Below are positions 2 through 28,491 of a stretch of DNA of 64,000 nucleotides, one piece after another. The position numbers were made by a program, and so were the translations under genes. The number at the start of each line of letters is the position of its first letter. Within the stretch, counting starts at the first letter, position 1. The notes beneath the pieces are model-generated. The model did no database searches and was not told the DNA's origin. It saw only the letters and a list, made by a program, of their open reading frames with translations. The stretch comes from Smithellaceae bacterium (GTDB taxonomy: Bacteria; Desulfobacterota; Syntrophia; Syntrophales; Smithellaceae). The stretch covers positions 4,821,245 through 4,885,244 of the forward strand of contig OY821638.1 of the NCBI GenBank assembly GCA_963682105.1, read 5' to 3'.

Positions 2-991
2 GGTTCGGTTGGCGCATACCTGGCAGGTTTGGCCGAAAGGCCTGATTTCCTCATCTGCGGAGCGCCGGGCATCTGTGACACCAATGCCAATGCCATGCAG
101 TTCATGTCCGAGTATCTCAATATCCCGCTTTTTCAGCTCACCTTTCCTTCAAATCTGACGGGCAGAAGAATCACTGACTACCAGCGCACGGATTACAAGG
201 CTCTGATTGCATTTATAGAAGAACATGCCGGGGTCCGCCTGGATGAGGATAAACTCAGGTCCGTTCTTGAAGAGCACAGGCGCCAGGATGAGATCATCAA
301 CGAAATCTTTGACCTCACGAGACTGAAACCCTGTCCCATGCCGCCCATTTTCAACCTGTTCCTGTACAGCGGAAAGCTCCAGTCGTCGGGCAGGAAATCA
401 TTCACCACCCTTCTTGAATCCATGCTCGAAGTCGTAAGCGGAAATGCAAAGGCCGGAAGAGCCGGGACAACCTCGGGCAAAGAACGGGCGCGTCTGCTCA
501 TGTGCTACATTGACCATTACACGACGGACGGTCGTTTCTGGCAATGGCTGGACTCGCAGGAGATCAGCCTCCTGCCGACACTCATATTCACCTTTTTCAA
601 CAAGGGGATCAATTACGCGGAAGGCAGGGAGAGTCAGACCTACGAGATGAATACCTCCACCATGGATGCCATGCTTGACTCACTGGCGGACATCAACTCG
701 CGCATGCCCATGATCAAACAACTCCGGGGGCCGTATGATGCGGCAGGGCAGTGGCGGGAAGACCTCTTCTGCATGTCCAGGATCATGAAACCTGATCTGG
801 CGGTCTATATCGGCAGCATGGGATGCCGCAACAGCTATGGCGTAAACAAGCTGATCCAGCGCGATGCCGAGCGCTTTGGCCTGCCGACGCTGCTTTTGTT
901 CGCGGACGCCTTTGACGACCGCGTCGCGTCCTGGGAGTTCTGTGTAGACAAGATCAGCGAGTTCATGCACGTAAGGGGGATTGCCTCATGA
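2..991 (+). CDS. HGD-D family subunit (2-hydroxyacyl-CoA dehydratase / benzoyl-CoA reductase B/C type); 5' end lies outside the window
   Basis: The frame is open from nt 2 to the TTG at 29 that the ORF track used, so the gene starts upstream. The sequence (ICGAPGICDTNANAMQF, AVYIGSMGCRNSYGVNKL, LLLFADAFDDR) resembles the C-terminal two-thirds of HgdA/B-BcrB/C-type subunits. The stop overlaps the next start (ATGA at 988-991). Confidence 0.8.
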   Translation, partial: GSVGAYLAGLAERPDFLICGAPGICDTNANAMQFMSEYLNIPLFQLTFPSNLTGRRITDYQRTDYKALIAFIEEHAGVRLDEDKLRSVLEEHRRQDEIINEIFDLTRLKPCPMPPIFNLFLYSGKLQSSGRKSFTTLLESMLEVVSGNAKAGRAGTTSGKERARLLMCYIDHYTTDGRFWQWLDSQEISLLPTLIFTFFNKGINYAEGRESQTYEMNTSTMDAMLDSLADINSRMPMIKQLRGPYDAAGQWREDLFCMSRIMKPDLAVYIGSMGCRNSYGVNKLIQRDAERFGLPTLLLFADAFDDRVASWEFCVDKISEFMHVRGIAS

Positions 992-1770
992 TTGCAGCCG
1001 GATGCGATGTCGGTTCCCTGACCACCAAAGCGATCATTCTGAACAACACGCGGCTGCTGGGTCATGCCATTGTCCGGTCATCGGTCAACCCCGAGAAATC
1101 GGCTTACGAGGTCATGGAAAAGGCGCTTGCCTCCGCACGGCTTGCGATGGGTGACGTCGCCTTCTGCGTCGGGACAGGTTATGGAAGGGAGCGGATCGGT
1201 TTCGTGCAGAAGACCATTTCCGAAATTTCCTGCCATGCAAAGGGCGCTTATTTCCTCCAGCCGTCCATCCGCACGATCATCGATATCGGCGGACAGGACT
1301 GCAAGGCCATCCGCCTGGACGCAAAGGGGGAGATCGTCAAGTTCATCACCAATGACAAGTGTGCATCCGGCACCGGCAGATTTCTTGAAGTCATGGCGAA
1401 ACTCCTGGGTCTGAAACTCGATGAACTGGGAAGCATCTCGAATCAGGCCTCACAGCCGATCAACCTTGCCTCCACCTGCACGGTATGGGCCCAGGCGGAA
1501 GTCGTCATGCGCCTCAACGATGGCCTGTCCAAAGCGGATCTTGCTGCGGGCATCAATGATGCCATGGCCGCACGCGTTGCCATCCTGGCCCGCTCGGTGG
1601 GTCTCGAAAAGGATGTGTGCATGACAGGCGGCGTGGCGAAGAACACAGGAGTTCTTGAGGCCATGGAAAAGCAGTTGGGCATTCCCATGCGCAGGCTCAG
1701 AGTAGATCCCCAGATGATGGGCGCCCTGGGGGCGGCAGTGTTTGCCCGGGAAAAAACCGGAGGGAAATGA
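988..1770 (+). CDS. BcrAD_BadFG-type ATPase (HgdC / BcrA-BcrD-like electron-activating subunit), copy 1
   Basis: Carries the N-terminal GCDVGSLTTKA, DIGGQD, and the two cluster-cysteine contexts NDKCASGTGRF and STCTVWAQAEV typical of HgdC/BcrAD. ATGA overlaps couple it to both neighbours. Confidence 0.9.
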   Translation: MIAAGCDVGSLTTKAIILNNTRLLGHAIVRSSVNPEKSAYEVMEKALASARLAMGDVAFCVGTGYGRERIGFVQKTISEISCHAKGAYFLQPSIRTIIDIGGQDCKAIRLDAKGEIVKFITNDKCASGTGRFLEVMAKLLGLKLDELGSISNQASQPINLASTCTVWAQAEVVMRLNDGLSKADLAAGINDAMAARVAILARSVGLEKDVCMTGGVAKNTGVLEAMEKQLGIPMRRLRVDPQMMGALGAAVFAREKTGGK

Positions 1771-2555
1771 TGTTTGTAGCGGGATGCGATATCGGATCTT
1801 TAAGCGCCAAGGCCGTCATCATGAAAGATGACCGTATTGTCGCCTCTTCCGTCATCTTCGCGAGGCCGGAGCCGGAAGAATCGGCCCGGGTGGTTATGGA
1901 AGAGGCTTTGAAGAAGGCCGGTTTGTCCATGGATGAGATCGCCTGTTGCGTGGGTACGGGATACGGCAGGAACGCCATTCCCTTTGCCCGGGCCGTGGAG
2001 TCGGAGATCGCCTGCCACGGGAAGGCTGCCCAGTGGCTCAAACCCCAGGTCCGCATGGTCATCGATATCGGGGGCCAGGACGCCAAGGCCATCCGGATCG
2101 ATGAAACGGGCAAGGTCGTTCGCTACGCATACAATGACCGGTGCGCCTCCGGCACGGGCAGGTTCCTTGAGGTGATGGCGGGTTCCATGGGCATCGATCT
2201 CGACGCCATGGGTGATATTTCATTCCAGGCAAGGAATCCCGTCTCTCTGTCCAACCAGTGCGTGGTTTTCGCCGAGACCGAGATCATATCGCTCATCAAT
2301 GAGGGCAGGGACCTTGCGGATATTGTGGGCGGACTGCACAAGGCTTTGTCCCATCGGGTGGCATCGCTGGCCAGGAGCATCGAACTTGAAAGTGAAATCA
2401 CTTTGACAGGGGGGGTGGCGAAAAACCGGGGCATGTTTTGCGCCCTTCAGGAAGCCCTCGGAGTAAAACTGGTCCGTATGGACACGGACCCCCAGATCAT
2501 CGGCGCTGTCGGTGCTGCCCTCATGGCCGGACGGGCAGCCGCCGGGAACGGGTGA
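1767..2555 (+). CDS. BcrAD_BadFG-type ATPase, copy 2 (distinct paralog, tandem with copy 1)
   Basis: Carries GCDIGSLSAKA, DIGGQD, NDRCASGTGRF and NQCVVFAETE. Two different tandem ATPase genes is the arrangement seen in class I benzoyl-CoA reductases (BcrA/BcrD). Confidence 0.9.
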   Translation: MMFVAGCDIGSLSAKAVIMKDDRIVASSVIFARPEPEESARVVMEEALKKAGLSMDEIACCVGTGYGRNAIPFARAVESEIACHGKAAQWLKPQVRMVIDIGGQDAKAIRIDETGKVVRYAYNDRCASGTGRFLEVMAGSMGIDLDAMGDISFQARNPVSLSNQCVVFAETEIISLINEGRDLADIVGGLHKALSHRVASLARSIELESEITLTGGVAKNRGMFCALQEALGVKLVRMDTDPQIIGAVGAALMAGRAAAGNG

Positions 2556-3301
2556 CAGACACAGTGGAACTCTTTACTGAAACCATTTCCGCCGTGCGTG
2601 CTTTTGTCTCACAGACATCCGGCCTGCGATCCTGGATAGCTGATCCGAAACCATCCTGGCCCCCGGGCGGCGGACGGAATATCGTGTTCAAAGAAGACCT
2701 GGGCCTCGAGCTGGGCAGCCCGCAGAAGGAATCCGTATCTTGCCTTCTGTGGACCCATGATCTTGCTTCCATTGAAAACAACAAAGTGATTCTCGTGGGG
2801 CCTGACTTCCCTGAAAGCATGGAACAAAGCCTCCCCTTCGGGAAAGTGGTTCTGGCGGGCGTGGAGGGGTTCACGGAAGACGGCGCCTATGACCTGCACA
2901 AAGATTTGGATTTCCTCCGGTACAGCATCGACCTCAGGGGTTTCATGATGAGGTCTGCATCCCAGTACATGAGGGAATGGTGCCGGATCAGCACTGAAGC
3001 GATCCGGCAGGGCTTTTCCGCTCGTATCCTGGGCTCGGCCCTCATTGGCCTTTTTCTTGAAAAACCCTTTGTGAAGGCCGTGGAAGTCATTTATCTCACC
3101 TCCAGCCCCGAGGATGTGGTCAGGCTCAGGGAGATTACCTCGCCGGCCGAAAAGGTCATCGCAGCCATGAACAAGATGGCCTCGGAAATGGATTTCGAAT
3201 GTGCAAGCTGCGACTACCAGGAGGTATGTGACGATGCCTCCCAGCTCAAGGCCATGCGGGAAAGGCTCATGAAAAAGTCACAGGAGGCCTACGTTGAATG
3301 A
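2552..3301 (+). CDS. Acetyl-CoA synthase (AcsB/CdhC family) middle-domain-like protein, truncated, ending in CxxCx5C
   Basis: I start it at the in-frame GTG at 2552, which overlaps the upstream stop (GTGA); the ORF-track start at 2438 would overlap the ATPase gene by 118 nt. By eye, ILVGPDFPE...LPFGKVVLAG and RISTEAIRQGFSARILG...VEVIYLTSS resemble the ACS middle domain. The C-terminus is FECASCDYQEVC. Function is uncertain. Confidence 0.55.
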   Translation: MTDTVELFTETISAVRAFVSQTSGLRSWIADPKPSWPPGGGRNIVFKEDLGLELGSPQKESVSCLLWTHDLASIENNKVILVGPDFPESMEQSLPFGKVVLAGVEGFTEDGAYDLHKDLDFLRYSIDLRGFMMRSASQYMREWCRISTEAIRQGFSARILGSALIGLFLEKPFVKAVEVIYLTSSPEDVVRLREITSPAEKVIAAMNKMASEMDFECASCDYQEVCDDASQLKAMRERLMKKSQEAYVE

Positions 3302-4064
3302 CACCAGGATAGTGGCGATGTGCGGCAAGGGGGGCGTGGGGAAGACCTCCATTTCCGCGCTCATGGTAAAAAAACTCTCGGAGTCGAACCACCGGAAAGT
3401 TCTCGCCATTGATGCGGATCCTGCCGCGGGGCTTGCAACATCCCTGGGCATCTCCGTGCGCAAGACGGTGGATGATATCCGGAGAGATCTCATCTCAAAG
3501 ATCCGCAAAGGTGATGCGCCGGAAAACCGCCGGACACTGGAGTTGCTCGATTACGAGGTGTTCGACGCCCTCGAAGAACAAAACGGGTATGTCCTGCTCG
3601 CTATCGGAAGGCCTGAAGATGAAGGTTGCTTCTGCAAGGTGAACAACCTGCTCAAGGATATTATCCGTGACCTGACCGGCAAGTTCGATACCGTGCTCAT
3701 CGACGGAGAGGCCGGCATTGAACAGATCAACAGGCGCGTCATGAAGACCGTGGACCATCTGGTCCTTGTCTCGGACACCTCGGTAAAGGGCATCGGTGTG
3801 GCCAATACCATAGCCCTCGTGGCCTCTGATAAAAGGGCCGTCGACTTCAAGCGCATGGGCCTGATCCTCAACCGGGTGAGGGGCGAAGCAGAGGCCCTCG
3901 ACATCAGCCACAGGACAAATCTGGAGATTTACGGATGGCTGTCTGACGACGAGGCCATTCGGGATTTCGATTTCAGGGGCGCCCCCCTGACATCCATGCC
4001 CGAAAACTCACCCAGCCTGGAAATTGTCTCGGATATCCTGAGGAAGATGAATCTCGTTACATAA
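3294..4064 (+). CDS. CooC/AcsF-like MinD-family P-loop ATPase (metallocentre maturation type)
   Basis: TTG start 6 nt after AGGAGG (3282-3287). Has the deviant Walker A CGKGGVGKTS, and a GCFCK (CxC) motif at the position of the CooC metal-binding CxC. Overlaps the upstream gene by 8 nt. Confidence 0.8.
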   Translation: MNDTRIVAMCGKGGVGKTSISALMVKKLSESNHRKVLAIDADPAAGLATSLGISVRKTVDDIRRDLISKIRKGDAPENRRTLELLDYEVFDALEEQNGYVLLAIGRPEDEGCFCKVNNLLKDIIRDLTGKFDTVLIDGEAGIEQINRRVMKTVDHLVLVSDTSVKGIGVANTIALVASDKRAVDFKRMGLILNRVRGEAEALDISHRTNLEIYGWLSDDEAIRDFDFRGAPLTSMPENSPSLEIVSDILRKMNLVT

Positions 4065-5228
4065 ATGACATGGGTCGGGAGGGGGGATGCATTGAAAACA
4101 GATCAACCAAAGATCATGAAGGTGTTTGAAGGTCTTCTGGAAAATCCCCAGAACCGCCTGGTCGAGCAGGCGGCACAAAGCGGGCGTATACCCATCGGGT
4201 ATTCCTGCTCATTCGTTCCCGAACCCCTTCTCATGGCGGACAGGCTCTTCCCGGTGCGTCTCCATGCCATGGGAGTGGCGGGGACGGAGCTTGCCGACAA
4301 TTATCTCTCCAGTCTGCTCTGCTCATACACCCGCAGCATCCTTGAGTTTGCCATGGATGACAGGTACGACCTTATCCGGGGGTGGGTATTCGTTCCGTCG
4401 TGCGCGCACATGCAGCGCCTCACGGACAACCTTGACTATCTCAAGAAACCTTCCTTCATCCATGTTATCGACGTACCGCGCAAAGTGAACAGCGCCACCG
4501 TGGCATGGCAGACAGAAGAGCTTCGTATGCTTGCAGATAAGCTTTCAGAGCATTTCAACGTCGATATAAGTGATCATGCGCTTATGAAGGCCATCGAAGA
4601 GTGGAATCATTTCTGCTCCGTTGTAAGTAAAATCGGAGACCTAAGGAAAAGACCGAATCCTCCCATCACAGGGACCGAATTTCATTGTGCGGTTATGGCG
4701 TCCCTTGCCTCGCCCAAAGACCTGATTCTTCCGTATCTCGAGGCCCTGCACGATGAAATCAAACATCAGGATGCTAAAGAAAAATACCGTGCCCGTCTCA
4801 TGGTGGCAGGCGGCCATCTTCATGACCCTGAGTTCATCCGCGTCATCGAGTCCCAAGGTGGACTTGTAGTAGCCGACCGCTTCTGCACCGGTTCCATACC
4901 CGGCCTCAATCCCGTCAAGGTCAATGGTGACCCCTTCAGGTCACTGGCGGAACAATCCTTTGAGAAGGCACGCTGCCCGCGCATGATGGAAGATTTCGAG
5001 CACCGTCTTAAACTCATCATTGATACGGTAAAGGAATACAAGGTGGATGGCGTTGTGCTCGAGGTTATCAAGTTCTGCGACCTCTGGGGGGTGGATGCCA
5101 TGCCGCTCGTGAGCGCCCTGCGCAACGAAGGCATCCCGGTGCTGAAACTGGAGCGTGAATACCGCCTCGGCAGTGAAGGCCAGCTCCGCACCCGGGTCCA
5201 GGCATTCATTGAGAGTATGGGCAGATAG
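4065..5228 (+). CDS. HGD-D family subunit (HgdB/BcrC-like), module 2 small subunit
   Basis: The motifs IGYSCSFVPEPLL, VFVPSCAHMQRL and DGVVLEVIKFCDLWG are typical of dehydratase/BCR beta-type subunits. An alternative start is TTG 4092, 5 nt after GGGAGGGGGG (4077-4086). Confidence 0.85.
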   Translation: MTWVGRGDALKTDQPKIMKVFEGLLENPQNRLVEQAAQSGRIPIGYSCSFVPEPLLMADRLFPVRLHAMGVAGTELADNYLSSLLCSYTRSILEFAMDDRYDLIRGWVFVPSCAHMQRLTDNLDYLKKPSFIHVIDVPRKVNSATVAWQTEELRMLADKLSEHFNVDISDHALMKAIEEWNHFCSVVSKIGDLRKRPNPPITGTEFHCAVMASLASPKDLILPYLEALHDEIKHQDAKEKYRARLMVAGGHLHDPEFIRVIESQGGLVVADRFCTGSIPGLNPVKVNGDPFRSLAEQSFEKARCPRMMEDFEHRLKLIIDTVKEYKVDGVVLEVIKFCDLWGVDAMPLVSALRNEGIPVLKLEREYRLGSEGQLRTRVQAFIESMGR

Positions 5229-5255
5229 TGGTTTGAAAATGGAGGAATCCCGGAA

Positions 5256-6767
5256 ATGACAAACACACGTGCATACCCAAAATCTCTGGTCATGAGACTG
5301 TCGGAGACGGGGAAAAGGTTATGGCAGACATCCCTGCCGGAATATCTCATGAACTCGCCGGACCTGAATGCCGCGCTCACCTATATGAAATACTGGGCGC
5401 TCAACTACAACGAAATCGGAAAGTTCGGAATCGAATGTGCTGTCAAGCTAGGCCCTGTGGGTGCCATCCAGATGATCATCAACAGTCCCTGGCTTTTGAC
5501 CCTGCTGAAGATAAACGGCCTGATGAGGCGTTATGGCCGCGGCAGGAAAGGTCTGTACCTGGAGTCTGTCTGCATGACGCTGAACACCATCGTCACAGGA
5601 ACCAACGACACCTTGAGGCAGATGTTTTTTTATCCTGATAGACTGGTCATCATCGAGGATCTGGTGCCAACGGATATCATGCATGCCATGGGGCTTGCCG
5701 CCTACCAGCTCGAGGGAATGGGAATTATGCTTCCCATCATCGATCAGAACGCGGCCACGAAGTACATCGACGAGGCGGAAAACGAGGGCATGAATCCCGA
5801 TGCCTGTAGCCTGCCAAAAACGACCGTAGGCATGGTTCTTAAGGGCCACATGCCCAAGGGTCTTGCTCTCGTGAGTTCAAATCTTCCTTGTGATGCAGGG
5901 GCAGCCTCATATTCCTTCTTTCAGCGTGCGTACAATATTCCCATCTACCGAGTCGATGTACCATACCATTTCTACAATGAGCGGGCGGAAAACCTTTTCA
6001 TTGAAGATGTGAAGGGCATGATTGCCTGGCTCGAAAAACACACACCCGGCCGCATGGACTGGGATCGTTTCCGGGATATCTGCGAGAACCGCAACCGCAT
6101 GCTGGAACTTGAGCTTGAGCTGTGGGACATGCTGCGTGCACGACCCGCCCCTCTTGCGTCAGAGGCCGTATGGCTGAGCCACCTCTGGCACTATAATGTG
6201 ACACCGGATTATAAAACGTCTGTTCATCTCTTCGAGAATCTGGTGAAGATGGCCAGGAAAAACCTTGAGACCAATACCCCGGCCACGGAGAATGAACGGT
6301 ACCGAACCATCGTGTGGAACCCTCCCTTCCTCCATTTTTCCGACATTTTCAACTGGGCCGAGCGGACCTATGGTCTGACGCTTATGAACGACAGCATGTC
6401 CTATCACCATCACACGCCCATCGACACCTCCACGCCCGAATCTATGTTACGTGGTTGGAGCAGGATCGTCATGCAGGGTCCCATGGTTCGTCATACCCGG
6501 GGACCGGCCGAAAATTACCTCGACGATATTTTCCGCGCACATAAGCAGTTCGATCTTGACATGATATGGATTGCCAACCATGTGGGTTGCAAGGGCGGAC
6601 AGGCCATGAATGGTATTCTGCGTGAAAAATGCCGTGAGAAGAGAATACCTCTGCTAATTCTCGATTACGACCTTAGCGACCCGAGAATTGTTTCCCACGA
6701 CAACATGAAACGGCAGGTGGAGCATTTCATGGACAATGTCATGAAAGCGCCTCGCCTTAAACACTAG
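5256..6767 (+). CDS. HGD-D family subunit (HgdA/BcrB-like), module 2 large subunit
   Basis: 503 aa. Carries NPDACSLPKTTVG, SSNLPCDAGAASY and IWIANHVGCKGGQAMNG, typical of alpha-type subunits. GGAGGA lies 9 nt upstream of the ATG. Confidence 0.85.
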   Translation: MTNTRAYPKSLVMRLSETGKRLWQTSLPEYLMNSPDLNAALTYMKYWALNYNEIGKFGIECAVKLGPVGAIQMIINSPWLLTLLKINGLMRRYGRGRKGLYLESVCMTLNTIVTGTNDTLRQMFFYPDRLVIIEDLVPTDIMHAMGLAAYQLEGMGIMLPIIDQNAATKYIDEAENEGMNPDACSLPKTTVGMVLKGHMPKGLALVSSNLPCDAGAASYSFFQRAYNIPIYRVDVPYHFYNERAENLFIEDVKGMIAWLEKHTPGRMDWDRFRDICENRNRMLELELELWDMLRARPAPLASEAVWLSHLWHYNVTPDYKTSVHLFENLVKMARKNLETNTPATENERYRTIVWNPPFLHFSDIFNWAERTYGLTLMNDSMSYHHHTPIDTSTPESMLRGWSRIVMQGPMVRHTRGPAENYLDDIFRAHKQFDLDMIWIANHVGCKGGQAMNGILREKCREKRIPLLILDYDLSDPRIVSHDNMKRQVEHFMDNVMKAPRLKH

Positions 6768-6781
6768 CTGGAGAGCTCTAA

Positions 6782-8092
6782 ATGCATGCAATCGAAGATG
6801 CTCAACTGTATCGGAAGCTTGGGGGAAAAATAGACAACCTTCACGTGAGGGCGCCCTGGAATGAAACCTGGCACAGCATTCTTAAGGAGCTCTACACCAC
6901 GGATGAGGCCGACGTTGTAGTAAAAATGCCCTACACTTTATCTACACTGGAGCGAATCTCAAAGGTCACCAACGTTTCGCAGACCCGTCTGCAGGGCATC
7001 CTGGAAGGACTGTGCGCCAAGGGGCTTATCCTGGATCTCTGGAATGAAGATCTTGGACGGTTCTTCTATATGCCAAATCCCATAGCCATAGGGATCTTCG
7101 AATTTACGATGATGAGGTCCGGCAACGATCTAAATATGAAGAAGTGGGCCAGGCTCTTTCACGAATACTTCGGCTCCGTTCATGCAGCGAATTTTTCGCA
7201 TCATGAGCAGGTCTCCGCGCTAAGAGTTATCCCCGTCGAAGAATCGGTGAAAGAAGGCCATTACATGGAATTTTTCGGTTACGAAAAAGCCACATCGCTC
7301 ATTGAGAACGCCGGAAAACTGGCCATCGGCGTGTGCTCCTGCAGGAACGAAAAGCTGCATACCGGCATGAAAGAATGCGATGCTCCGCTGGATACCTGCA
7401 GTTTTTTAGGAATCGGTGCGGACTATGCGATCAGAAACAACTTTGCACGAGAGGTCACGAAATCCGAGATGCTGGATAATCTTGCCCGGTCCAGGGAATA
7501 CGACCTCGTGTTCTGTGCCGTGAACACCCGGAAGAACCCCATGGCTATCTGTCATTGCTGCAAATGCTGCTGTAATTTTCTGGGCGGCCTGACCCGCTAC
7601 GGGTATTCGAACAGTGTCATCACTTCAAGTTTTATTTCAAGTATCGATGCGGGAAAGTGCACGGGGTGCGGGAAATGCGTGAAGGTGTGTCCGGTGAACG
7701 CATTGAGCCTGGTTTCTGCACATGATCCTGAAAATAATAAAAGGAAGACGGTTCAGCTCAATACAGAGAGATGCCTGGGCTGCGGGCTATGCCCGGCAAA
7801 GTGTGCGACCGCAGCGATAGAGATGATGCTGCGCACCGGTGAAGTACTTCACCCCGAATCCATGTTCGAGGTGACCATCCTCGCATCGCTGGAACGCGGC
7901 ACGCTGCAGAATCAGATCTTCGACAACCCCCAGAGTGTGCCCCAGGAATTCATGAGGTCTTTTGTGGGTGCGTGCCTAAGACTGTCCCCGGTCAAGAGGG
8001 CCTTGATGAGCGATACATTCAGATCCACTTTTCTGAGAACCGCGAAGTTGACCGCGAAGTTTCAGGGCAAGGGATGGATGCTGGATATTTAG
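6782..8092 (+). CDS. Multi-cluster Fe-S protein: Cys-run CHCCKCCC plus a C-terminal 2x[4Fe-4S] ferredoxin domain
   Basis: CTGCGKCVKVCP and CLGCGLCPAKC are classical ferredoxin motifs. Additional cysteine groups are CSCRNEKLHTGMKEC and AICHCCKCCCNF. The N-terminal ~100 aa look winged-helix-like (weak evidence). Confidence 0.7.
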   Translation: MHAIEDAQLYRKLGGKIDNLHVRAPWNETWHSILKELYTTDEADVVVKMPYTLSTLERISKVTNVSQTRLQGILEGLCAKGLILDLWNEDLGRFFYMPNPIAIGIFEFTMMRSGNDLNMKKWARLFHEYFGSVHAANFSHHEQVSALRVIPVEESVKEGHYMEFFGYEKATSLIENAGKLAIGVCSCRNEKLHTGMKECDAPLDTCSFLGIGADYAIRNNFAREVTKSEMLDNLARSREYDLVFCAVNTRKNPMAICHCCKCCCNFLGGLTRYGYSNSVITSSFISSIDAGKCTGCGKCVKVCPVNALSLVSAHDPENNKRKTVQLNTERCLGCGLCPAKCATAAIEMMLRTGEVLHPESMFEVTILASLERGTLQNQIFDNPQSVPQEFMRSFVGACLRLSPVKRALMSDTFRSTFLRTAKLTAKFQGKGWMLDI

Positions 8093-8129
8093 TTCCGGCG
8101 CCATGAAATCATCACGACAGGAGAAGAAT

Positions 8130-8924
8130 ATGACAAAAAAGTATTTCGGCGGATGCGATGTGGGGTCGACAACAGGAAAAGCCGTGATCATCGATGAAGG
8201 CGACAACATCGTCGCCTCCTCCATTGTGCCGAGTGAAATCGACCCTGAGCTGACATCCACGCTCGCCCTTGAAAAAGCCTGTACGCAGATCCAGGGGCTT
8301 AGTGGGCGTGAGGGTCTCCATTATCTGATAGGTACGGGCTACGGCCGTAATGAAGTGCCCTTTGCCCATGAGAACATATCGGAGATCAGTTGTCATGCCA
8401 TGGGCGCATTTTTCTGCAAGCCGGAGATCAAGACCATTGTGGATATCGGCGGTCAGGACGTGAAGGCGATTGCTGTTGACGGCAACGGGTCAGTCATGGA
8501 GTTCGCCATGAACGATAAGTGCGCGGCAGGCACCGGCAGGTTCTTCGAGGCGATGAGCCGGATCTTCCGCATGGATCTTGAGAAGTTTTCAGATCTTTCC
8601 CTGAAGGCGAACAGGATTATCCCGGTAACGGCTCAATGCAGTGTCTTTGCCGAAAGCGAGGTCATCAGTCTTCTGGCCAGAAAGAATCCACCCGATGAGA
8701 TTGCCGCCGGCATCCAGACCGCCGTGTCCAAACGCTGTTTCACCCTGCTCAAGCGTATCGGCATGCGCCCCCAGGTGACGGTTACGGGCGGTTGTGCGAA
8801 GAACAGGGGCCTCATCAAGGCGCTCGCCGGCATCATCAATATGGACGTAACCAGCCTCCCCGTAGACCCTCAGATTATAGGTGCCCTGGGGGCGGCGGTG
8901 TATGCAAAGCAAAAAGGAATGTAA
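8130..8924 (+). CDS. BcrAD_BadFG-type ATPase, copy 3 (HgdC-like activator for module 2)
   Basis: Start moved to ATG 8130, 6 nt after AGGAG. Carries GCDVGSTTGKA, DIGGQD, NDKCAAGTGRF and AQCSVFAESE. Confidence 0.9.
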   Translation: MTKKYFGGCDVGSTTGKAVIIDEGDNIVASSIVPSEIDPELTSTLALEKACTQIQGLSGREGLHYLIGTGYGRNEVPFAHENISEISCHAMGAFFCKPEIKTIVDIGGQDVKAIAVDGNGSVMEFAMNDKCAAGTGRFFEAMSRIFRMDLEKFSDLSLKANRIIPVTAQCSVFAESEVISLLARKNPPDEIAAGIQTAVSKRCFTLLKRIGMRPQVTVTGGCAKNRGLIKALAGIINMDVTSLPVDPQIIGALGAAVYAKQKGM

Positions 8925-8954
8925 ACCAATATATGATGAAAGGATGGAGGAGCA

Positions 8955-10196
8955 ATGGGCAGGAATCTCGATAACCTTTTCGTATATCCAAAGCAGTTGA
9001 TGGATGATGAATCCCTGAGTGTCGTGAGACTTGTCAGGCAATGGTCCGACAAGGAGATCGTGACCAAGCGCATGGAATATCGTGAGGACTATGAGAAGCT
9101 CTTCGCGCTGAAGAGAAAAAATCTCTGCATCGATCTCGGACTCCAGAAGCTCACCGTCCCGGCCGATCTCGGAGGGTTCGGATGGAACAGCCCTTCAAAG
9201 GCCCCGGCCTTGCTCGCCCTTGCCTGTGAGACCGGACGCGCCGATGCATCCATAGGCGTCCTTGCAGCGGCATCCTGGGCGCTGTTCCTCATGTTTGCCT
9301 GTAAGCACAATCACAAAGACAGTCTCTGCGGCGCTTTGGCATCCCGGTATTCGGAAGAAGCGGTCCGGACTCCGGCTTTCATCCTGACAGGCCCCGGGAG
9401 AAAGGGAATAGAGACCCCTCTTTTCTTCGGCAGGTCTGTTCTGGCGCTTGCCGAAAGATCCGAAGCAGGCCTCACCCTGAACGGCAAAGACCTCCGTCCT
9501 CTCATCGCAGGCGGCATGGCCGATCTCTTTTGCGTAGTGTACGCTGACGAAAACGGCAAGGCCGGTATCGCGCTTGTACCCGCGGATGCAATGGGCATAA
9601 AACGAGGCCCGTCCATTCTCATGACCGGGCTTAATGCCTGCGGGAATTCACAGATCGATTTCGATCAAGTACCTTTAGCCGTGGAAAATATTCTGGATCA
9701 GGATGGAAATATTGAAGAGCTGTACACCTGGGCCAATCTGCTTCTCGGCGGTGTGAGTGTCGGCGCTGCAATGAATTTCTTTGAACTGCTGGCGGATTGG
9801 AGCGATAACCGGACCATCAAGGGAGGCATCATCCTGAAGGAAAACCCCCTGTGCGCATCGGTTCTTGCCGATGTCGCCGGGGAGATCGCCATGGCAAGGC
9901 TGCTGCTGGGCGATTTAGCCGCAATCATTGCGACGCAGACGGAATCCCGGGCGGAGACCATCCGGCGCGCCTTCACTTACGCCGGGATGATCGGCCACCG
10001 GGTTCAGCAGGGCGTCATGCATGCCATGAACCGCGGCCTGGAGCTCATGGGGTCGGCGGGCTACGCGAGGGAGTGGCATGTAGAAAAGCACTGGAGGGAC
10101 GTGAAAACGATCCAGTCGATACTTTACGGAGTCGCTGCCGAGGCGCCGATCAAAATGGACACTGCCCGGTTTTTCTATAACTGTACTGAGATTTAA
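8955..10196 (+). CDS. Acyl-CoA dehydrogenase family protein (atypical C-terminal motif)
   Basis: GGAGGAG precedes the ATG. The C-terminal EKHWRDVKTIQSILYGV aligns with the ACAD signature EK.MRDAKI.QIYEGT, but the Glu is absent. Confidence 0.8.
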   Translation: MGRNLDNLFVYPKQLMDDESLSVVRLVRQWSDKEIVTKRMEYREDYEKLFALKRKNLCIDLGLQKLTVPADLGGFGWNSPSKAPALLALACETGRADASIGVLAAASWALFLMFACKHNHKDSLCGALASRYSEEAVRTPAFILTGPGRKGIETPLFFGRSVLALAERSEAGLTLNGKDLRPLIAGGMADLFCVVYADENGKAGIALVPADAMGIKRGPSILMTGLNACGNSQIDFDQVPLAVENILDQDGNIEELYTWANLLLGGVSVGAAMNFFELLADWSDNRTIKGGIILKENPLCASVLADVAGEIAMARLLLGDLAAIIATQTESRAETIRRAFTYAGMIGHRVQQGVMHAMNRGLELMGSAGYAREWHVEKHWRDVKTIQSILYGVAAEAPIKMDTARFFYNCTEI

Positions 10197-10210
10197 GGAG
10201 AGGGTTGACC

Positions 10211-11485
10211 ATGAAACATATTGACGAATTCTCCCGGTCCGAAGAGTACATCTCCCCGTTTGACAGGCACTTCAGACGCCTGCTCAGAAAAACGATCGAG
10301 GAATCGATCATGCCCTACCGGAGGCAGTATGATGAGGACTGGAAGGATCATCATCTTATCGAGCCTGCATTCCACAGGATCATGGTCGGGCTCGGGCTTC
10401 AAAAGGGCCTGTTTCCTATGGAATATGGAGGGATGGGCCTGGCTAAATCCGATTATTTTTTCAGGGCGGGCTATATGGTCTGCGAGGAACTGGGCAGAGC
10501 CGATACCGGTTTTGCCGTCGCACTGGGAGTGACATACTGGCCCCTGCTCGTGATTTCGGTTGATCCTTATGTGAACGAGCGGCTCATTGCCGAGTTTGCG
10601 CCTATGTTCTGCAATGCGGACAAGGCTGTATTTGCAGCCAATGCAATGACCGAACCCCAGGGAGGTTCCGACATCGAAAACCTCGGCCTGCTCGGCGGTA
10701 AAACCATCCGCACGACGGCCCGCCTCGATGGCGACGAGTGGGTGATCAACGGCCACAAACTCTGGCCCACCAATTCAGGCGGCGTGTCGAAACTGTTCGG
10801 TGTACCTTGCACGACCAAGCCCGGATCAGATGATCCAAATGATTTTGCCTTTATTTATGTGCCTGCCGATCTGCCGGGCGTGACCCAGGGCGGCGCCTAT
10901 GAGAAAGCGGGCATGGCGGCGGACAAGAATGGCGATATCTGGTTGGAGGATGTCCGTGTCCCTTCCTGGTACCGGGCTCACGGTCCGGGCAGGGATGCCG
11001 AGGCCTTCTACCAGCTTATTCCTTTCGGCCAGGTTATGAGCTGCGCATTCCTGACCGGGGCCATGATGAACCTCTATGAGCGACTGTATGAATTTGTATC
11101 CACCCGCACATACAACAATCGTCCGCTCAAAGAGAACGACGCAGTAGCAGGAATCATCGGCCGTATAGCAGGTGACATCGACATTTGCAGAATTCTCGGC
11201 TACGAGTCTGCCATGATCGGGGACCGCAGGAACAAGCCCTATGGGAAGCCGCTGATTTCGGAAGACGTGGTGGGCAGGATCAGAAACATCAAGGACTTCG
11301 TGTCGGATAGAGCGGTGGACTGTTTTGGCAAGGCCATGGACGTGCTTGGCCTCTATGGCGCGGACCGCGACTGGGACATCGAGAAGCACTGGCGCGACAT
11401 TAAGATCGTTCAACTCTGGATGGGTGGCAAGCAGCTCTGCCAGATGGAGGCCGCCCGATACTTCTTTAACTGCGAGACTCTCTGA
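10211..11485 (+). CDS. Acyl-CoA dehydrogenase family protein (atypical C-terminal motif), paralog of the previous gene
   Basis: ATG 10211 is preferred over TTG 10205. Carries AMTEPQGGSD and EKHWRDIKIVQLWMGG, where Met replaces the canonical catalytic Glu. The C-terminal ARYFFNCETL matches ARFFYNCTEI of the neighbour. Confidence 0.8.
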   Translation: MKHIDEFSRSEEYISPFDRHFRRLLRKTIEESIMPYRRQYDEDWKDHHLIEPAFHRIMVGLGLQKGLFPMEYGGMGLAKSDYFFRAGYMVCEELGRADTGFAVALGVTYWPLLVISVDPYVNERLIAEFAPMFCNADKAVFAANAMTEPQGGSDIENLGLLGGKTIRTTARLDGDEWVINGHKLWPTNSGGVSKLFGVPCTTKPGSDDPNDFAFIYVPADLPGVTQGGAYEKAGMAADKNGDIWLEDVRVPSWYRAHGPGRDAEAFYQLIPFGQVMSCAFLTGAMMNLYERLYEFVSTRTYNNRPLKENDAVAGIIGRIAGDIDICRILGYESAMIGDRRNKPYGKPLISEDVVGRIRNIKDFVSDRAVDCFGKAMDVLGLYGADRDWDIEKHWRDIKIVQLWMGGKQLCQMEAARYFFNCETL

Positions 11486-11492
11486 GGTGACC

Positions 11493-11948
11493 ATGGATAA
11501 CAAACAGGACACAGGAATATTGGAAAATCAAACAAGCGTTGCTGAAGAGCTCCTTGCCAGCACCTCCTTCAAGGACAGCCTGCGGCTGTTCCTGAAGAAC
11601 ATCGATCCGGAGTCCGGTCCCGCGCTTGTCCGCACACTTATGGGCAAAGACGTTGAGGTCCCCATGGCGGTAATAAGCGCCATGCCGGCAATAGCGAACT
11701 GCCTTATCAAGATGGCCATGGAAATGGTGGCGCAGATACGGAAATACCCTGCACCGATGCTTACAGGCATGACGGAATCCCTGCTACAGGATGTGGACAG
11801 GGAAACGCTTGCCCGACTGATCGGGGAGATTCGGGAACTCGGCAAAGATATGGCTCCTGTCTTCAGAGCCTTTTCAGCGTCCCTCGAAGAACAGTCTTCC
11901 AAAGAAAAGGAGATGACATCATGCAAACGGGATCTTCCCCGCAAGTAA
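11493..11948 (+). CDS. Hypothetical protein (151 aa), paralog of the next gene
   Basis: ATG at 11493 lies 8 nt after the upstream stop. It shares the pattern ...D(P/S)(E/D)SG...V(R/K)TLMG(K/E)D(V/P)EV... with the downstream ORF. I recognise no family. Confidence 0.6.
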   Translation: MDNKQDTGILENQTSVAEELLASTSFKDSLRLFLKNIDPESGPALVRTLMGKDVEVPMAVISAMPAIANCLIKMAMEMVAQIRKYPAPMLTGMTESLLQDVDRETLARLIGEIRELGKDMAPVFRAFSASLEEQSSKEKEMTSCKRDLPRK

Positions 11949-14592: not shown

Positions 14593-14669
14593 AACTCTGC
14601 TTTGTCAGACAGGACGCAGACGCAAAAGAGCAGAAATTCATATTCTTTTCGGGAGTTCAGCATGTTTGA
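14577..14669 (+). CDS. Speculative 30-codon ORF (MKNIKKLCFVRQDADAKEQKFIFFSGVQHV) overlapping the PqqD-like start
   Basis: I translated it by hand. Its stop TGA (14667-14669) overlaps the PqqD-like ATG (14662) by 8 nt. The only upstream SD-like element is a weak AGG. No homology evidence. Confidence 0.15.
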   Translation: MKNIKKLCFVRQDADAKEQKFIFFSGVQHV

Positions 14670-16231: not shown

Positions 16232-16234
16232 GCC

Positions 16235-20650: not shown

Positions 20651-20699
20651 AGAAGAGCCGCTGCTCGTAAGAAAATCACTGAAGAGGTATAATATTTTA

Positions 20700-23410: not shown

Positions 23411-23451
23411 TTTACTATAAACTCCTTTTTTTAGAATCTTTAATACTTTAT

Positions 23452-24216: not shown

Positions 24217-24271
24217 GCTGGTCTCCTTACCGGTATTTCATTGTGATCCGGAAATCTTAAAACGTAAATCG

Positions 24272-28483: not shown

Positions 28484-28491
28484 GGGGTGAT

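What the first reader, a model, noticed from the sequence alone, without database searches (positions are those of the whole stretch)
2..8924. Two different BCR/HAD-superfamily enzymes and three archerase-type ATPases in one 9-kb operon
Module 1 has an HGD-D subunit truncated at the window edge, then two distinct tandem BcrAD_BadFG ATPase genes linked by ATGA overlaps. That layout is seen in class I benzoyl-CoA reductases, where a heterodimeric ATPase is a stoichiometric subunit (BcrCBAD/BzdNOPQ). Module 2 has an HGD-D pair (387 and 503 aa), a 436-aa multi-cluster Fe-S protein and a single ATPase. That layout is seen in 2-hydroxyacyl-CoA dehydratases with a catalytic activator. All genes are on one strand with minimal gaps, followed by two ACAD-like genes. 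The window shows no CoA transferase or ligase, no enoyl-CoA hydratase, no ETF and no ring-hydrolysing enzyme next to them, so the substrate cannot be deduced. The pathway may combine an ATP-driven reduction with a ketyl-radical dehydration.
Basis: partly seen in the sequence, partly recalled or inferred. Interest (0 to 1): 0.7.

Follow-up and report, generated by a model that had tools for sequence, protein, structure and literature searches.

The report
Conserved twin ATP-driven iron-sulfur radical enzyme operon
This is a real, widely conserved but unstudied operon of uncultured anaerobes (Smithella-like) that encodes two related ATP-powered iron-sulfur radical enzymes with three ATPases, two flavin dehydrogenases and, unexpectedly, a CooC-type metal-insertion ATPase plus a fragment-like relative of acetyl-CoA synthase; databases label it benzoyl-CoA reductase or hydroxyacyl-CoA dehydratase, but it matches neither.

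Summary
On the + strand there are a truncated HGD-D gene, two tandem BcrAD_BadFG ATPases joined by ATGA overlaps, an HGD-D pair (387 and 503 aa), a 436-aa poly-cluster Fe-S protein, a third ATPase and two ACAD-like genes. One is a stand-alone homologue of the acetyl-CoA-synthase middle domain with a C-terminal CxxCx5C. The other is a CooC-type ATPase with the CXC motif.

A 99.4 %-identical contig supplies the upstream part: TetR, a 417-aa unknown, a 399-aa N-type subunit, a 79-aa protein and the full 468-aa O-type subunit. The operon therefore spans about 16 kb.

The same gene order recurs in 78 genome loci and most of 78 metagenome loci (Smithella, Desulfomonilia, Syntrophaceae, Desulfobacterales, Leptospirales, Bacillota). 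Module 1 with CdhC-like and CooC-like genes is the core. Module 2 follows it in about half.

Both small subunits keep all six [8Fe-9S] cysteines of BzdN/DCCP. Both large subunits keep the three-Cys [4Fe-4S] site. The two modules are each other's closest relatives and fall outside BCR, HAD and DCCP. The "BCR module plus HAD module" split is not supported. The substrate is unknown, probably an acyl-CoA. No paper describing the cluster was found.

The parts
2..991 (+). M1O: C-terminal 329 aa of the 468-aa large (substrate-side, O/alpha-type) HGD-D subunit of module 1, cut by the window edge
   Evidence: Pfam HGD-D 4.5e-34. The full-length gene is in L001 4648-6054, which is 99.4 % identical over the 2841-nt overlap. 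In the family alignment Cys135, Cys164, Cys414 and His311 are conserved in 97/97 sequences.
988..1770 (+). ATP1: archerase-type ATPase (260 aa)
   Evidence: BcrAD_BadFG 4e-60 and TIGR00241 at 240 bits, above its cut-off. Best PDB matches are MbdQ 3.9e-67 and HadI 1.4e-62. The cluster cysteines C125 and C164 are conserved in 68/68 sequences. ATGA overlap with M1O.
1767..2555 (+). ATP2: second archerase-type ATPase (262 aa), 48 % identical to ATP1
   Evidence: BcrAD_BadFG 5e-56. C126 and C165 are conserved in 65/65 sequences. Sister clade of ATP1 in the NJ tree. ATGA overlap.
2552..3301 (+). CdhC-like protein (249 aa): stand-alone homologue of the acetyl-CoA-synthase middle (A2) domain with a C-terminal CxxCx5C motif and no A-cluster domain
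   Evidence: PF03598 3.3e-10. Profile against PDB: CdhC 9c0s_E 6.7e-9 and ACS residues 334-480 at 1e-5. The AF2 model has pLDDT 81, and the 23 Foldseek PDB hits with E <= 1e-6 are all ACS/CdhC, with the next hit at E 0.29. CxxCx5C is conserved in 52/53 sequences. GTGA overlap with ATP2. Present after ATP2 in 57/65 loci.
3294..4064 (+). CooC-type P-loop ATPase (256 aa) with a GKGGVGKT Walker A and a CXC metal motif
   Evidence: Best PDB match is CooC1 3kje at 5.8e-17, with the CXC motif aligned. C112 and C114 are conserved in 54/54 sequences. Present in 52/61 loci. It overlaps the CdhC-like gene by 8 nt and abuts M2N.
4065..5228 (+). M2N: small (N/beta-type) HGD-D subunit of module 2 (387 aa), predicted [8Fe-9S] carrier
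   Evidence: HGD-D 1.8e-85. Best PDB match is BzdN at 4.3e-27. Six Cys align with the BzdN/DCCP ligands and are conserved in 27/27 sequences.
5256..6767 (+). M2O: large (O/alpha-type) HGD-D subunit of module 2 (503 aa)
   Evidence: HGD-D 5e-52. Family profile best match is BzdO at 4.6e-33, ahead of MbdO, DCCP and HadB. Cys184 and Cys212 are conserved in 32/32 sequences and Cys445 in 29/32.
6782..8092 (+). 436-aa poly-cluster Fe-S protein, candidate electron carrier of module 2
   Evidence: Fer4 families at about 1e-11. Nineteen cysteines are invariant in 10/10 homologues, enough for at least four clusters. Present in 10 of 26 loci that have module 2.
8103..8924 (+). ATP3: third archerase-type ATPase (273 aa)
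   Evidence: BcrAD_BadFG 1.4e-52 and TIGR00241 at 230 bits. C140 and C179 are conserved in 19/19 sequences. Forms its own clade in the NJ tree.
8955..10196 (+). ACAD1: divergent acyl-CoA-dehydrogenase-like protein (413 aa)
   Evidence: Acyl-CoA_dh_1 3.6e-11 and a weak N-terminal domain match; no middle-domain hit. It occurs paired with ACAD2 in 36/48 loci.
10205..11485 (+). ACAD2: acyl-CoA-dehydrogenase-like protein (426 aa)
   Evidence: All three ACAD domains match. Best NCBIfam match is cyclohexane-1-carbonyl-CoA dehydrogenase at 8e-29, far below its cut-off.
11493..11948 (+). x1: 151-aa conserved protein with no family match
   Evidence: No Pfam or NCBIfam hit. It follows ACAD2 in most loci.
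11921..12565 (+). x2: 214-aa conserved protein with no family match; last gene of the block
   Evidence: No Pfam or NCBIfam hit. Conserved position. Only a weak hhalign link to the unk417 family, probability 56 %.

Best explanation
The block is one long operon, about 16 kb including the upstream part seen in L001. It belongs to a conserved, uncharacterised gene cluster of strictly anaerobic, mostly uncultured bacteria.

It encodes two paralogous two-subunit radical enzymes of a separate lineage within the BCR/HAD/DCCP (HGD-D) superfamily. In each, a small N-type subunit is predicted to hold a six-Cys double-cubane [8Fe-9S] cluster. A large O-type subunit holds a three-Cys [4Fe-4S] cluster with one open iron next to the substrate.

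Inferred mechanism. A low-potential carrier supplies electrons. In this window that is the 436-aa poly-cluster protein; in other loci it is an EFR1-type flavodoxin-ferredoxin. The carrier reduces the [4Fe-4S] cluster bridging an archerase dimer, which is an ATP1/ATP2 heterodimer for module 1 and an ATP3 homodimer for module 2. ATP hydrolysis then drives the electron through [8Fe-9S] to the catalytic [4Fe-4S]. There a CoA-thioester substrate is converted by ketyl or hydrogen-atom radical chemistry, most likely a net reduction as in class I BCR.

A two-gene ACAD-like pair, replaced in some genomes by a GMC-type flavoprotein, makes or consumes the unsaturated CoA ester. Acyl-CoA-type TetR repressors control the cluster. 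The CooC-type ATPase and the ACS-A2-like Fe-S protein are accessory factors of module 1, either for assembly or repair of a metal cluster or as an extra electron- or CoA-handling subunit.

Shown: gene content, motifs, conservation and relationships. Inferred: the electron path, reductive chemistry, a CoA-ester substrate and the role of the CooC and CdhC-like genes.
For: - Domain identities are secure.
- Operon structure: gaps of -8 to +30 nt with ATGA/GTGA overlaps.
- The six Cys of the N-type subunits align with the BzdN/DCCP ligands and are conserved in 68-69/69 (M1N) and 27/27 (M2N) sequences. HadC has only 4 of the 6 and MbdN only 3. The ligand definitions come from PMC11971306 and PMC7317905.
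- The three Cys of the O-type subunits are invariant. M1O Glu104 aligns with HadB Glu55.
- All three ATPases keep both cluster cysteines and exceed the TIGR00241 cut-off.
- Synteny in 78 genome loci: unk417 62/64, M1N 69/72, ATP1 69/72, ATP2 63/67, CdhC-like 57/65, CooC-like 52/61, and module 2 in 26/53. A flavoprotein partner is present in 47/48.
- In metagenomes 25/31 M2 loci have module 1 upstream.
- Links to CoA-ester metabolism in subsets of loci: enoyl-CoA hydratase in 9, AMP ligase in 6, ADP-forming acyl-CoA synthetase in 4 and SDR in 4. The TetR matches FadR best.
- Dedicated Fe-S or flavodoxin carriers sit next to module 2.
- In NJ trees M1N and M2N are sister clades outside BzdN, MbdN, HadC and DCCP at 19-27 % identity, and ATP1 and ATP2 are sister clades.
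Against: - No biochemical, expression or metal data exist.
- Reduction versus dehydration cannot be decided from sequence. M1N and M1O match HadC and HadB slightly better than BzdN and BzdO.
- The His131 acid/base residue of BzdO is Asn in M1O and absent in M2O.
- No ring hydrolase, dienoyl-CoA hydratase, ETF or CoA transferase is part of the conserved core.
- Stoichiometric ATP use would be costly for syntrophs.
- CoA binding was not tested.
- The trees are crude NJ trees with few references and no support values.
- BzdNO and DCCP assemble [8Fe-9S] in E. coli (BzdNO: PMC11971306; DCCP: from my own knowledge, not checked here), so a dedicated maturase is not obviously required.
Confidence: 0.5

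Rival explanations
1. Both modules, or module 1 alone, are 2-hydroxyacyl-CoA dehydratases. In the reverse direction they would be enoyl-CoA 2-hydratases. The ATPases act only as catalytic activators that inject one recycled electron. The ACAD pair oxidises or reduces the enoyl-CoA partner, as acdB does in the had operon. This mode costs almost no ATP and so suits syntrophs.
For: M1N matches HadC best (6.9e-40 against 6.9e-35 for BzdN). The M1O profile matches HadB best (1.6e-15 against 1.7e-8 for BzdO), with Glu104 aligned to HadB Glu55. All three ATPases are of the HgdC/HadI/MbdQ type. A divergently transcribed polar-amino-acid ABC transporter is present in 11 loci. The link between ACADs and HAD operons comes from established knowledge of hadIBC-acdB-etfBA, not from a test here.
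Against: Both N-type subunits have the six-Cys double-cubane set, not the HadC pattern. No CoA transferase, 2-hydroxyacid dehydrogenase or ETF is in the window block, and none recurs in the 78 loci. HadB and HadC NCBIfam scores are 37 and 113 bits against cut-offs of 750 and 700. Module 2 has its own multi-cluster electron carrier, which a catalytic activator does not obviously need.
Confidence: 0.25
2. The cluster encodes a genuine class I benzoyl-CoA (aryl-CoA) reductase system for anaerobic aromatic degradation, as automatic annotation implies ("benzoyl-CoA reductase subunit B/C").
For: Source annotations name homologues as BCR subunits. The gene order N-O-ATPase-ATPase mirrors bzdNOPQ. The six-Cys N-type subunit resembles BzdN. 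The M2O profile matches BzdO best at 4.6e-33. Similar Prokka calls in a Smithella-related MAG were read as aromatic degradation in PMC10936416.
Against: NCBIfam equivalog scores are far below the cut-offs: bzdN 94 against 454, bzdO 22-24 against 449 and bzdQ 202 against 380. His131 is absent and Tyr97 is not conserved in the alignments. No ATPase is of the P/D type. No dienoyl-CoA hydratase, Oah or BamA ring hydrolase is in the conserved core. Identity to BzdN and MbdN is 19-26 %.
Confidence: 0.06
3. The enzymes are DCCP-like reductases of a small substrate that is not a CoA ester, such as an alkyne or alkene or an inorganic compound. The ACAD-like proteins serve a different step.
For: The best NCBIfam hit of M2N is the double-cubane reductase model at 6.3e-49. 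The six ligand cysteines are present. DCCP reduces acetylene (PMC7317905).
Against: DCCP is a homodimer of one subunit type, whereas here each N-type gene is paired with an O-type gene carrying a HadB/BzdO-like three-Cys site. The seventh DCCP cysteine is absent. The score of 167 is below the 350 cut-off. The context is rich in acyl-CoA enzymes.
Confidence: 0.08
4. The CooC-like and CdhC-like genes are passengers that are unrelated in function to the radical enzymes.
For: No mechanism requires them. BzdNO and DCCP assemble their clusters in E. coli without such factors (BzdNO: PMC11971306; DCCP: from my own knowledge).
Against: They sit between module 1 and module 2 with overlapping or abutting start and stop codons. 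They follow ATP2 in 57/65 and 52/61 loci across several phyla. Their motifs are strictly conserved.
Confidence: 0.06

Closest known systems
Class I benzoyl-CoA reductase, Bzd type (BzdNOPQ; structures 8S02, 8S1T, 8S2R)
   Same: Gene order is small subunit, large subunit, then two ATPase genes. The N-type subunit has the same six cysteine ligands as the BzdN [8Fe-9S] cluster. The O-type subunit has three Cys for a [4Fe-4S] cluster with an open iron. The ATPases are ASKHA-type with a bridging cluster.
   Different: Identity is only 19-26 %. All equivalog scores are far below their cut-offs. His131 and Tyr97 of BzdO are not conserved. The two ATPases are a separate duplication, both Q/HgdC-like with no P/D-like partner. 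There are extra conserved genes (unk417, a 79-aa protein, CdhC-like, CooC-like, an ACAD pair, x1, x2). No bzd downstream genes are present.
2-Hydroxyisocaproyl-CoA dehydratase HadBC with activator HadI (3O3M, 4EHT)
   Same: Best single-sequence PDB match for M1N (HadC) and M1O (HadB). Glu55 of HadB aligns with the invariant Glu104 of M1O. The ATPases are 1e-62-level relatives of HadI. An ACAD lies nearby, as in the had operon.
   Different: The partner subunit has six Cys (double-cubane pattern) where HadC has a three-Cys [4Fe-4S] cluster with an SH ligand. Module 1 has two ATPase genes. There is no CoA transferase, 2-hydroxyacid dehydrogenase or ETF. The organisms are syntrophs and sulfate reducers, not amino-acid-fermenting clostridia.
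Double-cubane cluster protein DCCP with DCCP-R (6ENO, 7YYL)
   Same: The six ligand cysteines have similar spacing, and an archerase partner is present.
   Different: DCCP is a homodimer with a 7-Cys motif. Here the seventh Cys is missing and the protein is paired with a distinct O-type subunit. The ATPases are distant from DCCP-R (1e-40 against 1e-67 for MbdQ).
CooC1/AcsF nickel-insertion ATPases and acetyl-CoA synthase (AcsB/CdhC)
   Same: The CooC-like protein has the deviant Walker A and the CXC motif, aligned to CooC1. The CdhC-like protein has the ACS A2-domain fold (all top Foldseek hits).
   Different: There is no CODH, no full ACS and no A-cluster domain (no Cys-Gly-Cys Ni site). The partners are HGD-D radical-enzyme genes instead. 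I found no description of such a pairing in the papers searched.
[quoted passage not shown]
   Same: A class I BCR-like reductase in an obligate anaerobe, embedded among acyl-CoA enzymes and a regulator.
   Different: The reductase genes in that operon are named ncrC-ncrB-ncrA-ncrD. It has 22 genes with MaoC dehydratases, a thiolase and hydrolases. It has no CooC-like, CdhC-like or unk417 genes and no second HGD-D module (PMC12016498).

Membership tests
Class I BCR, Bzd type | Small subunit with six Cys ligating a double-cubane [8Fe-9S] cluster | tested here: met
   M1N C32/70/97/264/294/328 and M2N C48/86/113/274/304/338 align with BzdN C36/73/100/263/293/327. They are conserved in 68-69/69 and 27/27 sequences.
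Class I BCR, Bzd type | Large subunit with three Cys for an aqua-[4Fe-4S] cluster, plus the Glu65/His131 acid-base pair | tested here: not met
   The three Cys are present and invariant. The His131 position is Asn167 in M1O and has no His in M2O. The Glu is only tentatively aligned.
Class I BCR, Bzd type | Curated equivalog scores for BzdN, BzdO and BzdQ | tested here: not met
   bzdN 94 against 453.8, bzdO 22-24 against 448.6 and bzdQ 170-202 against 380.2 bits.
Class I BCR, Bzd type | Heterodimeric ATPase made of two divergent subunit types (Q/A-like and P/D-like) | tested here: not met
   Two ATPase genes exist, but both score as Q/HgdC-like. MbdP reaches only 2.7e-39 against 3.9e-67 for MbdQ. 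ATP1 and ATP2 are sister clades.
2-Hydroxyacyl-CoA dehydratase (HadBC type) | Alpha subunit with three Cys and the catalytic Glu55 | tested here: met
   For M1O, C135 and C164 align with HadB cluster cysteines and E104 aligns with E55. C414 is invariant. For M2O the three Cys are present.
2-Hydroxyacyl-CoA dehydratase (HadBC type) | Beta subunit carrying a single three-Cys [4Fe-4S] cluster, with no double cubane | tested here: not met
   HadC lacks the cysteines equivalent to M1N C32 and C264. Both window N-type subunits have all six.
2-Hydroxyacyl-CoA dehydratase (HadBC type) | Curated equivalog scores, and a context with a CoA transferase and a 2-hydroxyacid dehydrogenase | tested here: not met
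   HadB 28-37 against 750 and HadC 113 against 700 bits. No such genes occur in the window block or recur in the 78 loci.
DCCP (double-cubane cluster protein) | 7-Cys motif, homodimer of one subunit type, and the NF040772 score | tested here: not met
   Six of the seven Cys are present. The seventh (DCCP C95) is Arg or His (motif from PMC7317905). The genes are paired with O-type genes. Scores are 167, 41 and 31 against a cut-off of 350.
Archerase (acyl-CoA dehydratase activase, TIGR00241) | ASKHA ATPase scoring above the domain cut-off, with two Cys per monomer for the bridging [4Fe-4S] cluster | tested here: met
   Scores of 240, 239 and 230 bits against a cut-off of 125. The Cys pairs are conserved in 68/68, 65/65 and 19/19 sequences.
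CooC/AcsF maturation ATPases | Deviant Walker A and the CXC metal-binding motif | tested here: met
   GKGGVGKT is read directly from the sequence. The CXC motif aligns with CooC1 3kje at 5.8e-17 and is conserved in 54/54 sequences.
CooC/AcsF maturation ATPases | Genomic association with a CODH or ACS client | tested here: not met
   No cooS or full acsB occurs in the block or in related loci. The only ACS-related gene is the A2-domain protein.
Acetyl-CoA synthase (AcsB/CdhC) | A-cluster domain with a four-Cys [4Fe-4S] site and a Cys-Gly-Cys Ni site | tested here: not met
   Homology covers only ACS residues 334-480 (A2 domain). The protein ends about 60 aa later with a CxxCx5C motif.
Acyl-CoA dehydrogenase | Three ACAD domains and a canonical catalytic Glu | tested here: inconclusive
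   ACAD2 has all three domains and ACAD1 lacks a middle-domain hit. By eye neither shows the MCAD-type YEG glutamate. Alternative base positions were not tested.

The most novel reading that the evidence does not exclude
The strictly conserved, translationally coupled CooC-type ATPase and ACS-A2-like Fe-S protein exist because module 1 carries a metal centre that cannot self-assemble. This could be a nickel- or other heterometal-containing, or otherwise ATP-assembled, Fe-S cofactor in an HGD-D family enzyme. That would be a new metallocofactor and a new chemistry for the BCR/HAD/DCCP superfamily.

A second unexcluded reading is an oxygen-independent alpha-oxidation of hydrophobic or branched acyl-CoAs. 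An ACAD would desaturate the acyl-CoA, and a HAD-like enzyme running in reverse would add water at C2.
Probability: 0.12. Interest if true: 0.9.

Novelty: new variant of a known kind. Interest (0 to 1): 0.62.

Why it matters
ATP-driven Fe-S radical enzymes carry out some of the most reducing reactions in biology, and only three functional types are known: BCR, HAD and DCCP. This cluster defines a fourth, widespread lineage. In the one-genome-per-species collection, 195 stretches encode a relative of its large module 1 subunit. Hosts include key syntrophs of digesters, peat, sediments and oil systems.

The cluster has its own duplicated ATPase pair and an unprecedented link to CooC/ACS-type proteins.

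It is routinely auto-annotated as benzoyl-CoA reductase or 2-hydroxyacyl-CoA dehydratase. Such calls have been used to infer aromatic degradation in Smithella-related MAGs (PMC10936416), so recognising it as distinct prevents false pathway predictions. Identifying its substrate could reveal a missing anaerobic pathway for a hydrophobic, alicyclic or branched acid. It would also test whether double-cubane clusters are general electron stores in this superfamily.

Tried and rejected
- **Structure of unk417.** The AlphaFold2 model from a 23-sequence alignment had pLDDT 48.8 and was all-alpha. It was unusable for fold search.
- **Homology of unk417 with x1 and x2.** hhalign gave probabilities of only 56 % and 3.7 %, so the relationship is not established.
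- **Metagenome scan with divergent M2O alignments.** Two attempts failed for lack of conserved stretches. The scan succeeded with a closer alignment.
- **Residue-level test of the BzdO thioester ligands (Tyr97, Gln274, Tyr298) in M2O.** The profile alignment is ambiguous by 1-2 positions, so it was not used beyond Tyr97 and His131.
- **Literature.** Five full-text searches found no description of this cluster. Papers on Smithella M82, limonene and isoprene reductase were opened and found irrelevant.
- **Identity with the thn operon or a bzd cluster.** Rejected on gene content.
- **Context of stand-alone M2 modules.** It is heterogeneous (GlpA-like flavoproteins, efflux genes, an acyl-CoA synthetase) and gives no substrate clue.
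- **Promoter and terminator scan.** Counts are at the chance level.
- PDB sequence searches and structure-prediction jobs were exhausted, so M1O and M2O were not modelled.

Full report
**1. What is in the sequence**

Thirteen + strand genes fill window positions 2-12565, with gaps of -8 to +30 nt:
- M1O: HGD-D, truncated, 2-991
- ATP1: 988-1770
- ATP2: 1767-2555
- a CdhC-like gene: 2552-3301
- a CooC-like gene: 3294-4064
- M2N: HGD-D, 387 aa, 4065-5228
- M2O: HGD-D, 503 aa, 5256-6767
- a 436-aa Fe-S protein: 6782-8092
- ATP3: 8103-8924
- ACAD1: 8955-10196
- ACAD2: 10205-11485
- x1: 11493-11948
- x2: 11921-12565

Pfam and NCBIfam matches are unambiguous for the HGD-D, BcrAD_BadFG, Fer4 and ACAD genes.

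**2. The upstream flank**

An exact-protein look-up found contig L001 (Logan SRR28229721). It is 99.4 % identical to the window over 2841 nt. It shows, upstream of the window edge, in order:
- a TetR regulator
- a 417-aa protein with no family ("unk417")
- a 399-aa HGD-D subunit (M1N)
- a 79-aa protein (M1s)
- the full 468-aa M1O

Module 1 is therefore a complete small and large subunit pair followed by two ATPases. The source labels of the nearest homologues are Smithella, Smithellaceae and "Deltaproteobacteria". The window's own proteins sit on a 5.22-Mb NCBI contig.

**3. Which subunit is which**

Searches against PDB sequences show that M1N and M2N are of the small N/beta type and M1O and M2O are of the large O/alpha type.
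- M1N: HadC 6.9e-40, BzdN 6.9e-35
- M2N: BzdN 4.3e-27, HadC 4.2e-21
- M1O family profile: HadB 1.6e-15, DCCP 8e-12, BzdO 1.7e-8
- M2O family profile: BzdO 4.6e-33, MbdO 9e-26, DCCP and HadB about 3e-24

By sequence, then, module 1 leans slightly towards HAD and module 2 towards Bzd.

**4. Cluster ligands**

The BzdNO structure paper defines the reference sites: six Cys ligands of an [8Fe-9S] double cubane in BzdN, and Cys95, Cys128 and Cys380 plus water on a [4Fe-4S] cluster in BzdO, with Glu65 and His131 as acid/base residues (PMC11971306). The DCCP review gives the 7-Cys motif and states that HadB and HadC each bind one three-Cys [4Fe-4S] cluster (PMC7317905).

N-type subunits. I aligned M1N and M2N with the PDB sequences of BzdN, MbdN, HadC and DCCP.
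- Both window proteins have all six ligand cysteines.
- HadC has four of the six and MbdN three.
- The seventh DCCP cysteine is absent, as in BzdN.
- Across related loci the six Cys are conserved in 68-69 of 69 M1N and 27 of 27 M2N sequences.

O-type subunits.
- Three Cys are invariant: M1O C135/C164/C414 and M2O C184/C212/C445.
- M1O Glu104 aligns with HadB Glu55.
- The BzdO His131 position is an invariant Asn in M1O, and no His is present there in M2O.

Both modules therefore look like [8Fe-9S] plus open-site [4Fe-4S] enzymes. This feature set is shared with Bzd-type BCR, but the BCR acid/base histidine is missing.

**5. ATPases**

- All three exceed the curated cut-off of the activase domain model (230-240 bits against 125).
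- All three score as BzdQ > BcrA > BcrD.
- ATP1 matches MbdQ (3.9e-67), HadI and HgdC far better than MbdP (2.7e-39) or DCCP-R.
- The two cluster cysteines are conserved in every homologue.
- In a crude NJ tree, ATP1 and ATP2 are sister clades. ATP3 is a separate clade beside MbdQ, HadI and HgdC. MbdP and DCCP-R are distant.

The tandem pair is therefore a duplication specific to this lineage, not an orthologue of the BCR P/Q or A/D pair.

**6. The two overlooked genes**

The 249-aa protein is homologous only to the middle (A2) domain of acetyl-CoA synthase.
- Profile against PDB: CdhC 6.7e-9 and ACS residues 334-480 at 1e-5.
- Its AlphaFold model has pLDDT 81. The 23 Foldseek PDB hits with E <= 1e-6 are all ACS/CdhC, and the next hit has E = 0.29.
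- It lacks the A-cluster domain and ends in a CxxCx5C motif that is conserved in 52 of 53 sequences.

The 256-aa protein is a CooC-family ATPase.
- Its best PDB match is CooC1 at 5.8e-17, with the metal-binding CXC motif aligned.
- The CXC motif is conserved in 54 of 54 sequences.

**7. Conservation**

A pattern scan of one genome per species returned 195 relatives of M1O, and 78 loci were kept. I mapped all window proteins onto them, which shows one recurrent architecture:

[TetR - ACAD1 - ACAD2 - x1 - x2] - [TetR] - unk417 - M1N - (second M1O paralogue) - M1s - M1O - ATP1 - ATP2 - CdhC-like - CooC-like - [M2N - M2O - (Fe-S) - ATP3]

Counts among loci with enough flank:

| Gene | Present |
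|---|---|
| unk417 | 62/64 |
| M1N | 69/72 |
| ATP1 | 69/72 |
| ATP2 | 63/67 |
| CdhC-like | 57/65 |
| CooC-like | 52/61 |
| M2N | 26/53 |

- An ACAD pair is present in 36 and a GMC-type FAD oxidoreductase in 11 of 48 loci. One or the other is present in 47 of 48.
- Twenty loci carry two M1O paralogues.
- In a metagenome scan seeded with M2O, 25 of 31 loci with enough upstream sequence have module 1 in front. Six more distant M2 modules stand alone.
- Hosts are labelled Smithella, Desulfomonilia, Syntrophaceae, Desulfobacterales, Thermodesulfobacteriota, Leptospirales/Spirochaetes and Bacillota, plus the phosphite oxidiser Phox-21. All are MAGs.

Accessory genes in subsets of loci point to CoA-ester metabolism and low-potential electron supply:

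| Accessory gene | Loci |
|---|---|
| Divergent polar-amino-acid ABC transporter | 11 |
| Enoyl-CoA hydratase | 9 |
| EFR1-type flavodoxin-ferredoxin, between the CooC-like gene and M2N | 9 |
| AMP-forming ligase | 6 |
| Radical SAM | 5 |
| ADP-forming acyl-CoA synthetase | 4 |
| Aldehyde:ferredoxin oxidoreductase | 4 |
| SDR | 4 |
| URO-D-like | 4 |

One homologue of unk417 is fused to an SCP2 lipid-carrier domain. This is a weak hint of a hydrophobic substrate.

**8. Relationship to known families**

- Every NCBIfam equivalog model (BzdN/O/Q, BcrA-D, HadB/C, double-cubane reductase) is missed by a wide margin.
- M1N and M2N are 30 % identical to each other but only 19-27 % identical to BzdN, MbdN, HadC and DCCP. 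In an NJ tree they form sister clades outside those references.
- M1O and M2O are likewise more similar to each other than either is to any solved protein. Their local alignment scores 257 raw, against 23-36-bit single-sequence PDB hits.
- The two modules are therefore paralogues within one uncharacterised lineage, not one BCR and one HAD.
- Gene content differs from the bzd cluster and the thn operon.
- Five full-text searches found no description of the cluster.
- One paper shows how Prokka "bcr" calls in a Smithella-related MAG were taken as evidence of aromatic degradation (PMC10936416). That illustrates the annotation risk.

**9. How it most likely works**

Shown:
- the gene set
- the cluster-binding motifs
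- translational coupling
- conservation

Inferred:
- Reduced ferredoxin-like carriers (the 436-aa protein with 19 invariant Cys, or EFR1-type proteins) reduce the archerase dimers.
- ATP hydrolysis pushes the electron through the double cubane of the N-type subunit to the open-site [4Fe-4S] cluster of the O-type subunit.
- There a CoA thioester is converted by radical chemistry.

I favour net reduction (0.5) over catalytic-electron dehydration (0.25).

Reasons for favouring reduction:
- the BzdN/DCCP-type double cubane
- the dedicated electron carriers
- the duplicated ATPase
- the absence of CoA-transferase and 2-hydroxyacid-dehydrogenase genes

Reasons that keep the dehydratase rival alive:
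- the HAD-leaning similarity of module 1
- the missing His131
- the energy budget of syntrophs

The ACAD pair or the GMC flavoprotein probably supplies or removes the unsaturated CoA ester. The CooC-like and ACS-A2-like pair is most simply a maturation or repair system, or an extra Fe-S subunit, of module 1. No precedent was found, so its role is the main open question.

**10. Verdict**

The finding is a new variant of a known enzyme kind: conserved, widespread, uncharacterised and prone to misannotation. The substrate, the type of chemistry and any involvement of nickel remain untested.

Noticed in passing
window 34488-38942 (-): A 1484-aa protein with two BcrAD_BadFG ATPase domains plus DUF2229 ("CoA enzyme activase"). 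It is a further, fused archerase-type system in the same 64-kb window.
   Followed up: no
window 22607-32133: A minus-strand set: two SDRs, an Amidohydro_2 protein, an AMP-dependent CoA ligase (25141-26790) and two HpaB-family proteins (26818-28311 and 29670-31217). That family includes 4-hydroxybutyryl-CoA dehydratase. AraC and TetR regulators are also present. This looks like a second possible acyl-CoA or ketyl-radical locus, and it is the only CoA ligase found in the part of the window annotated (about 1-45 kb).
   Followed up: partly
window 14602-22592 (+): PqqD-like, HPr-kinase-C-like, GT1, GT61, GT2 and NTP_transf_5 genes plus a 660-aa radical SAM protein. This looks like a RiPP-type or glycosylation cluster that separates the operon from the next acyl-CoA genes.
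   Followed up: no
window 13291-14352 (-): Two tandem Slp-family outer-membrane lipoprotein genes lie immediately after the operon.
   Followed up: no
P0511 (JGI metagenome protein, 530 aa): A homologue of the conserved unknown unk417 is fused to an N-terminal SCP2 sterol/lipid-carrier domain (E 4.4e-7, above the gathering score). This is a Rosetta-stone hint of a hydrophobic ligand.
   Followed up: partly
L020-L053 (e.g. L021 around 8-11.4 kb): Twenty loci carry two full M1O paralogues next to a single M1N. Both paralogues keep the three Cys and His311, which suggests alternative catalytic partners for one double-cubane subunit.
   Followed up: partly
L016, L019, L054-L076: Where the ACAD pair is absent, a GMC/FAD_binding_2-type flavoprotein of about 447 aa sits directly upstream of unk417 or after ATP2. 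This is an apparent non-homologous replacement of the flavin dehydrogenase.
   Followed up: partly
L131, L138, L139, L144, L150, L153: More distant M2N-M2O-ATP3 modules occur alone, without module 1, in varied contexts: GlpA-like flavoproteins, TetR with efflux genes, or an acyl-CoA synthetase.
   Followed up: partly
window 8955-11485: By eye, neither ACAD-like protein has the MCAD-type catalytic Glu in the C-terminal "YEG" position, and ACAD1 gives no middle-domain Pfam hit. This resembles heteromeric two-gene ACADs, but it was not tested.
   Followed up: no
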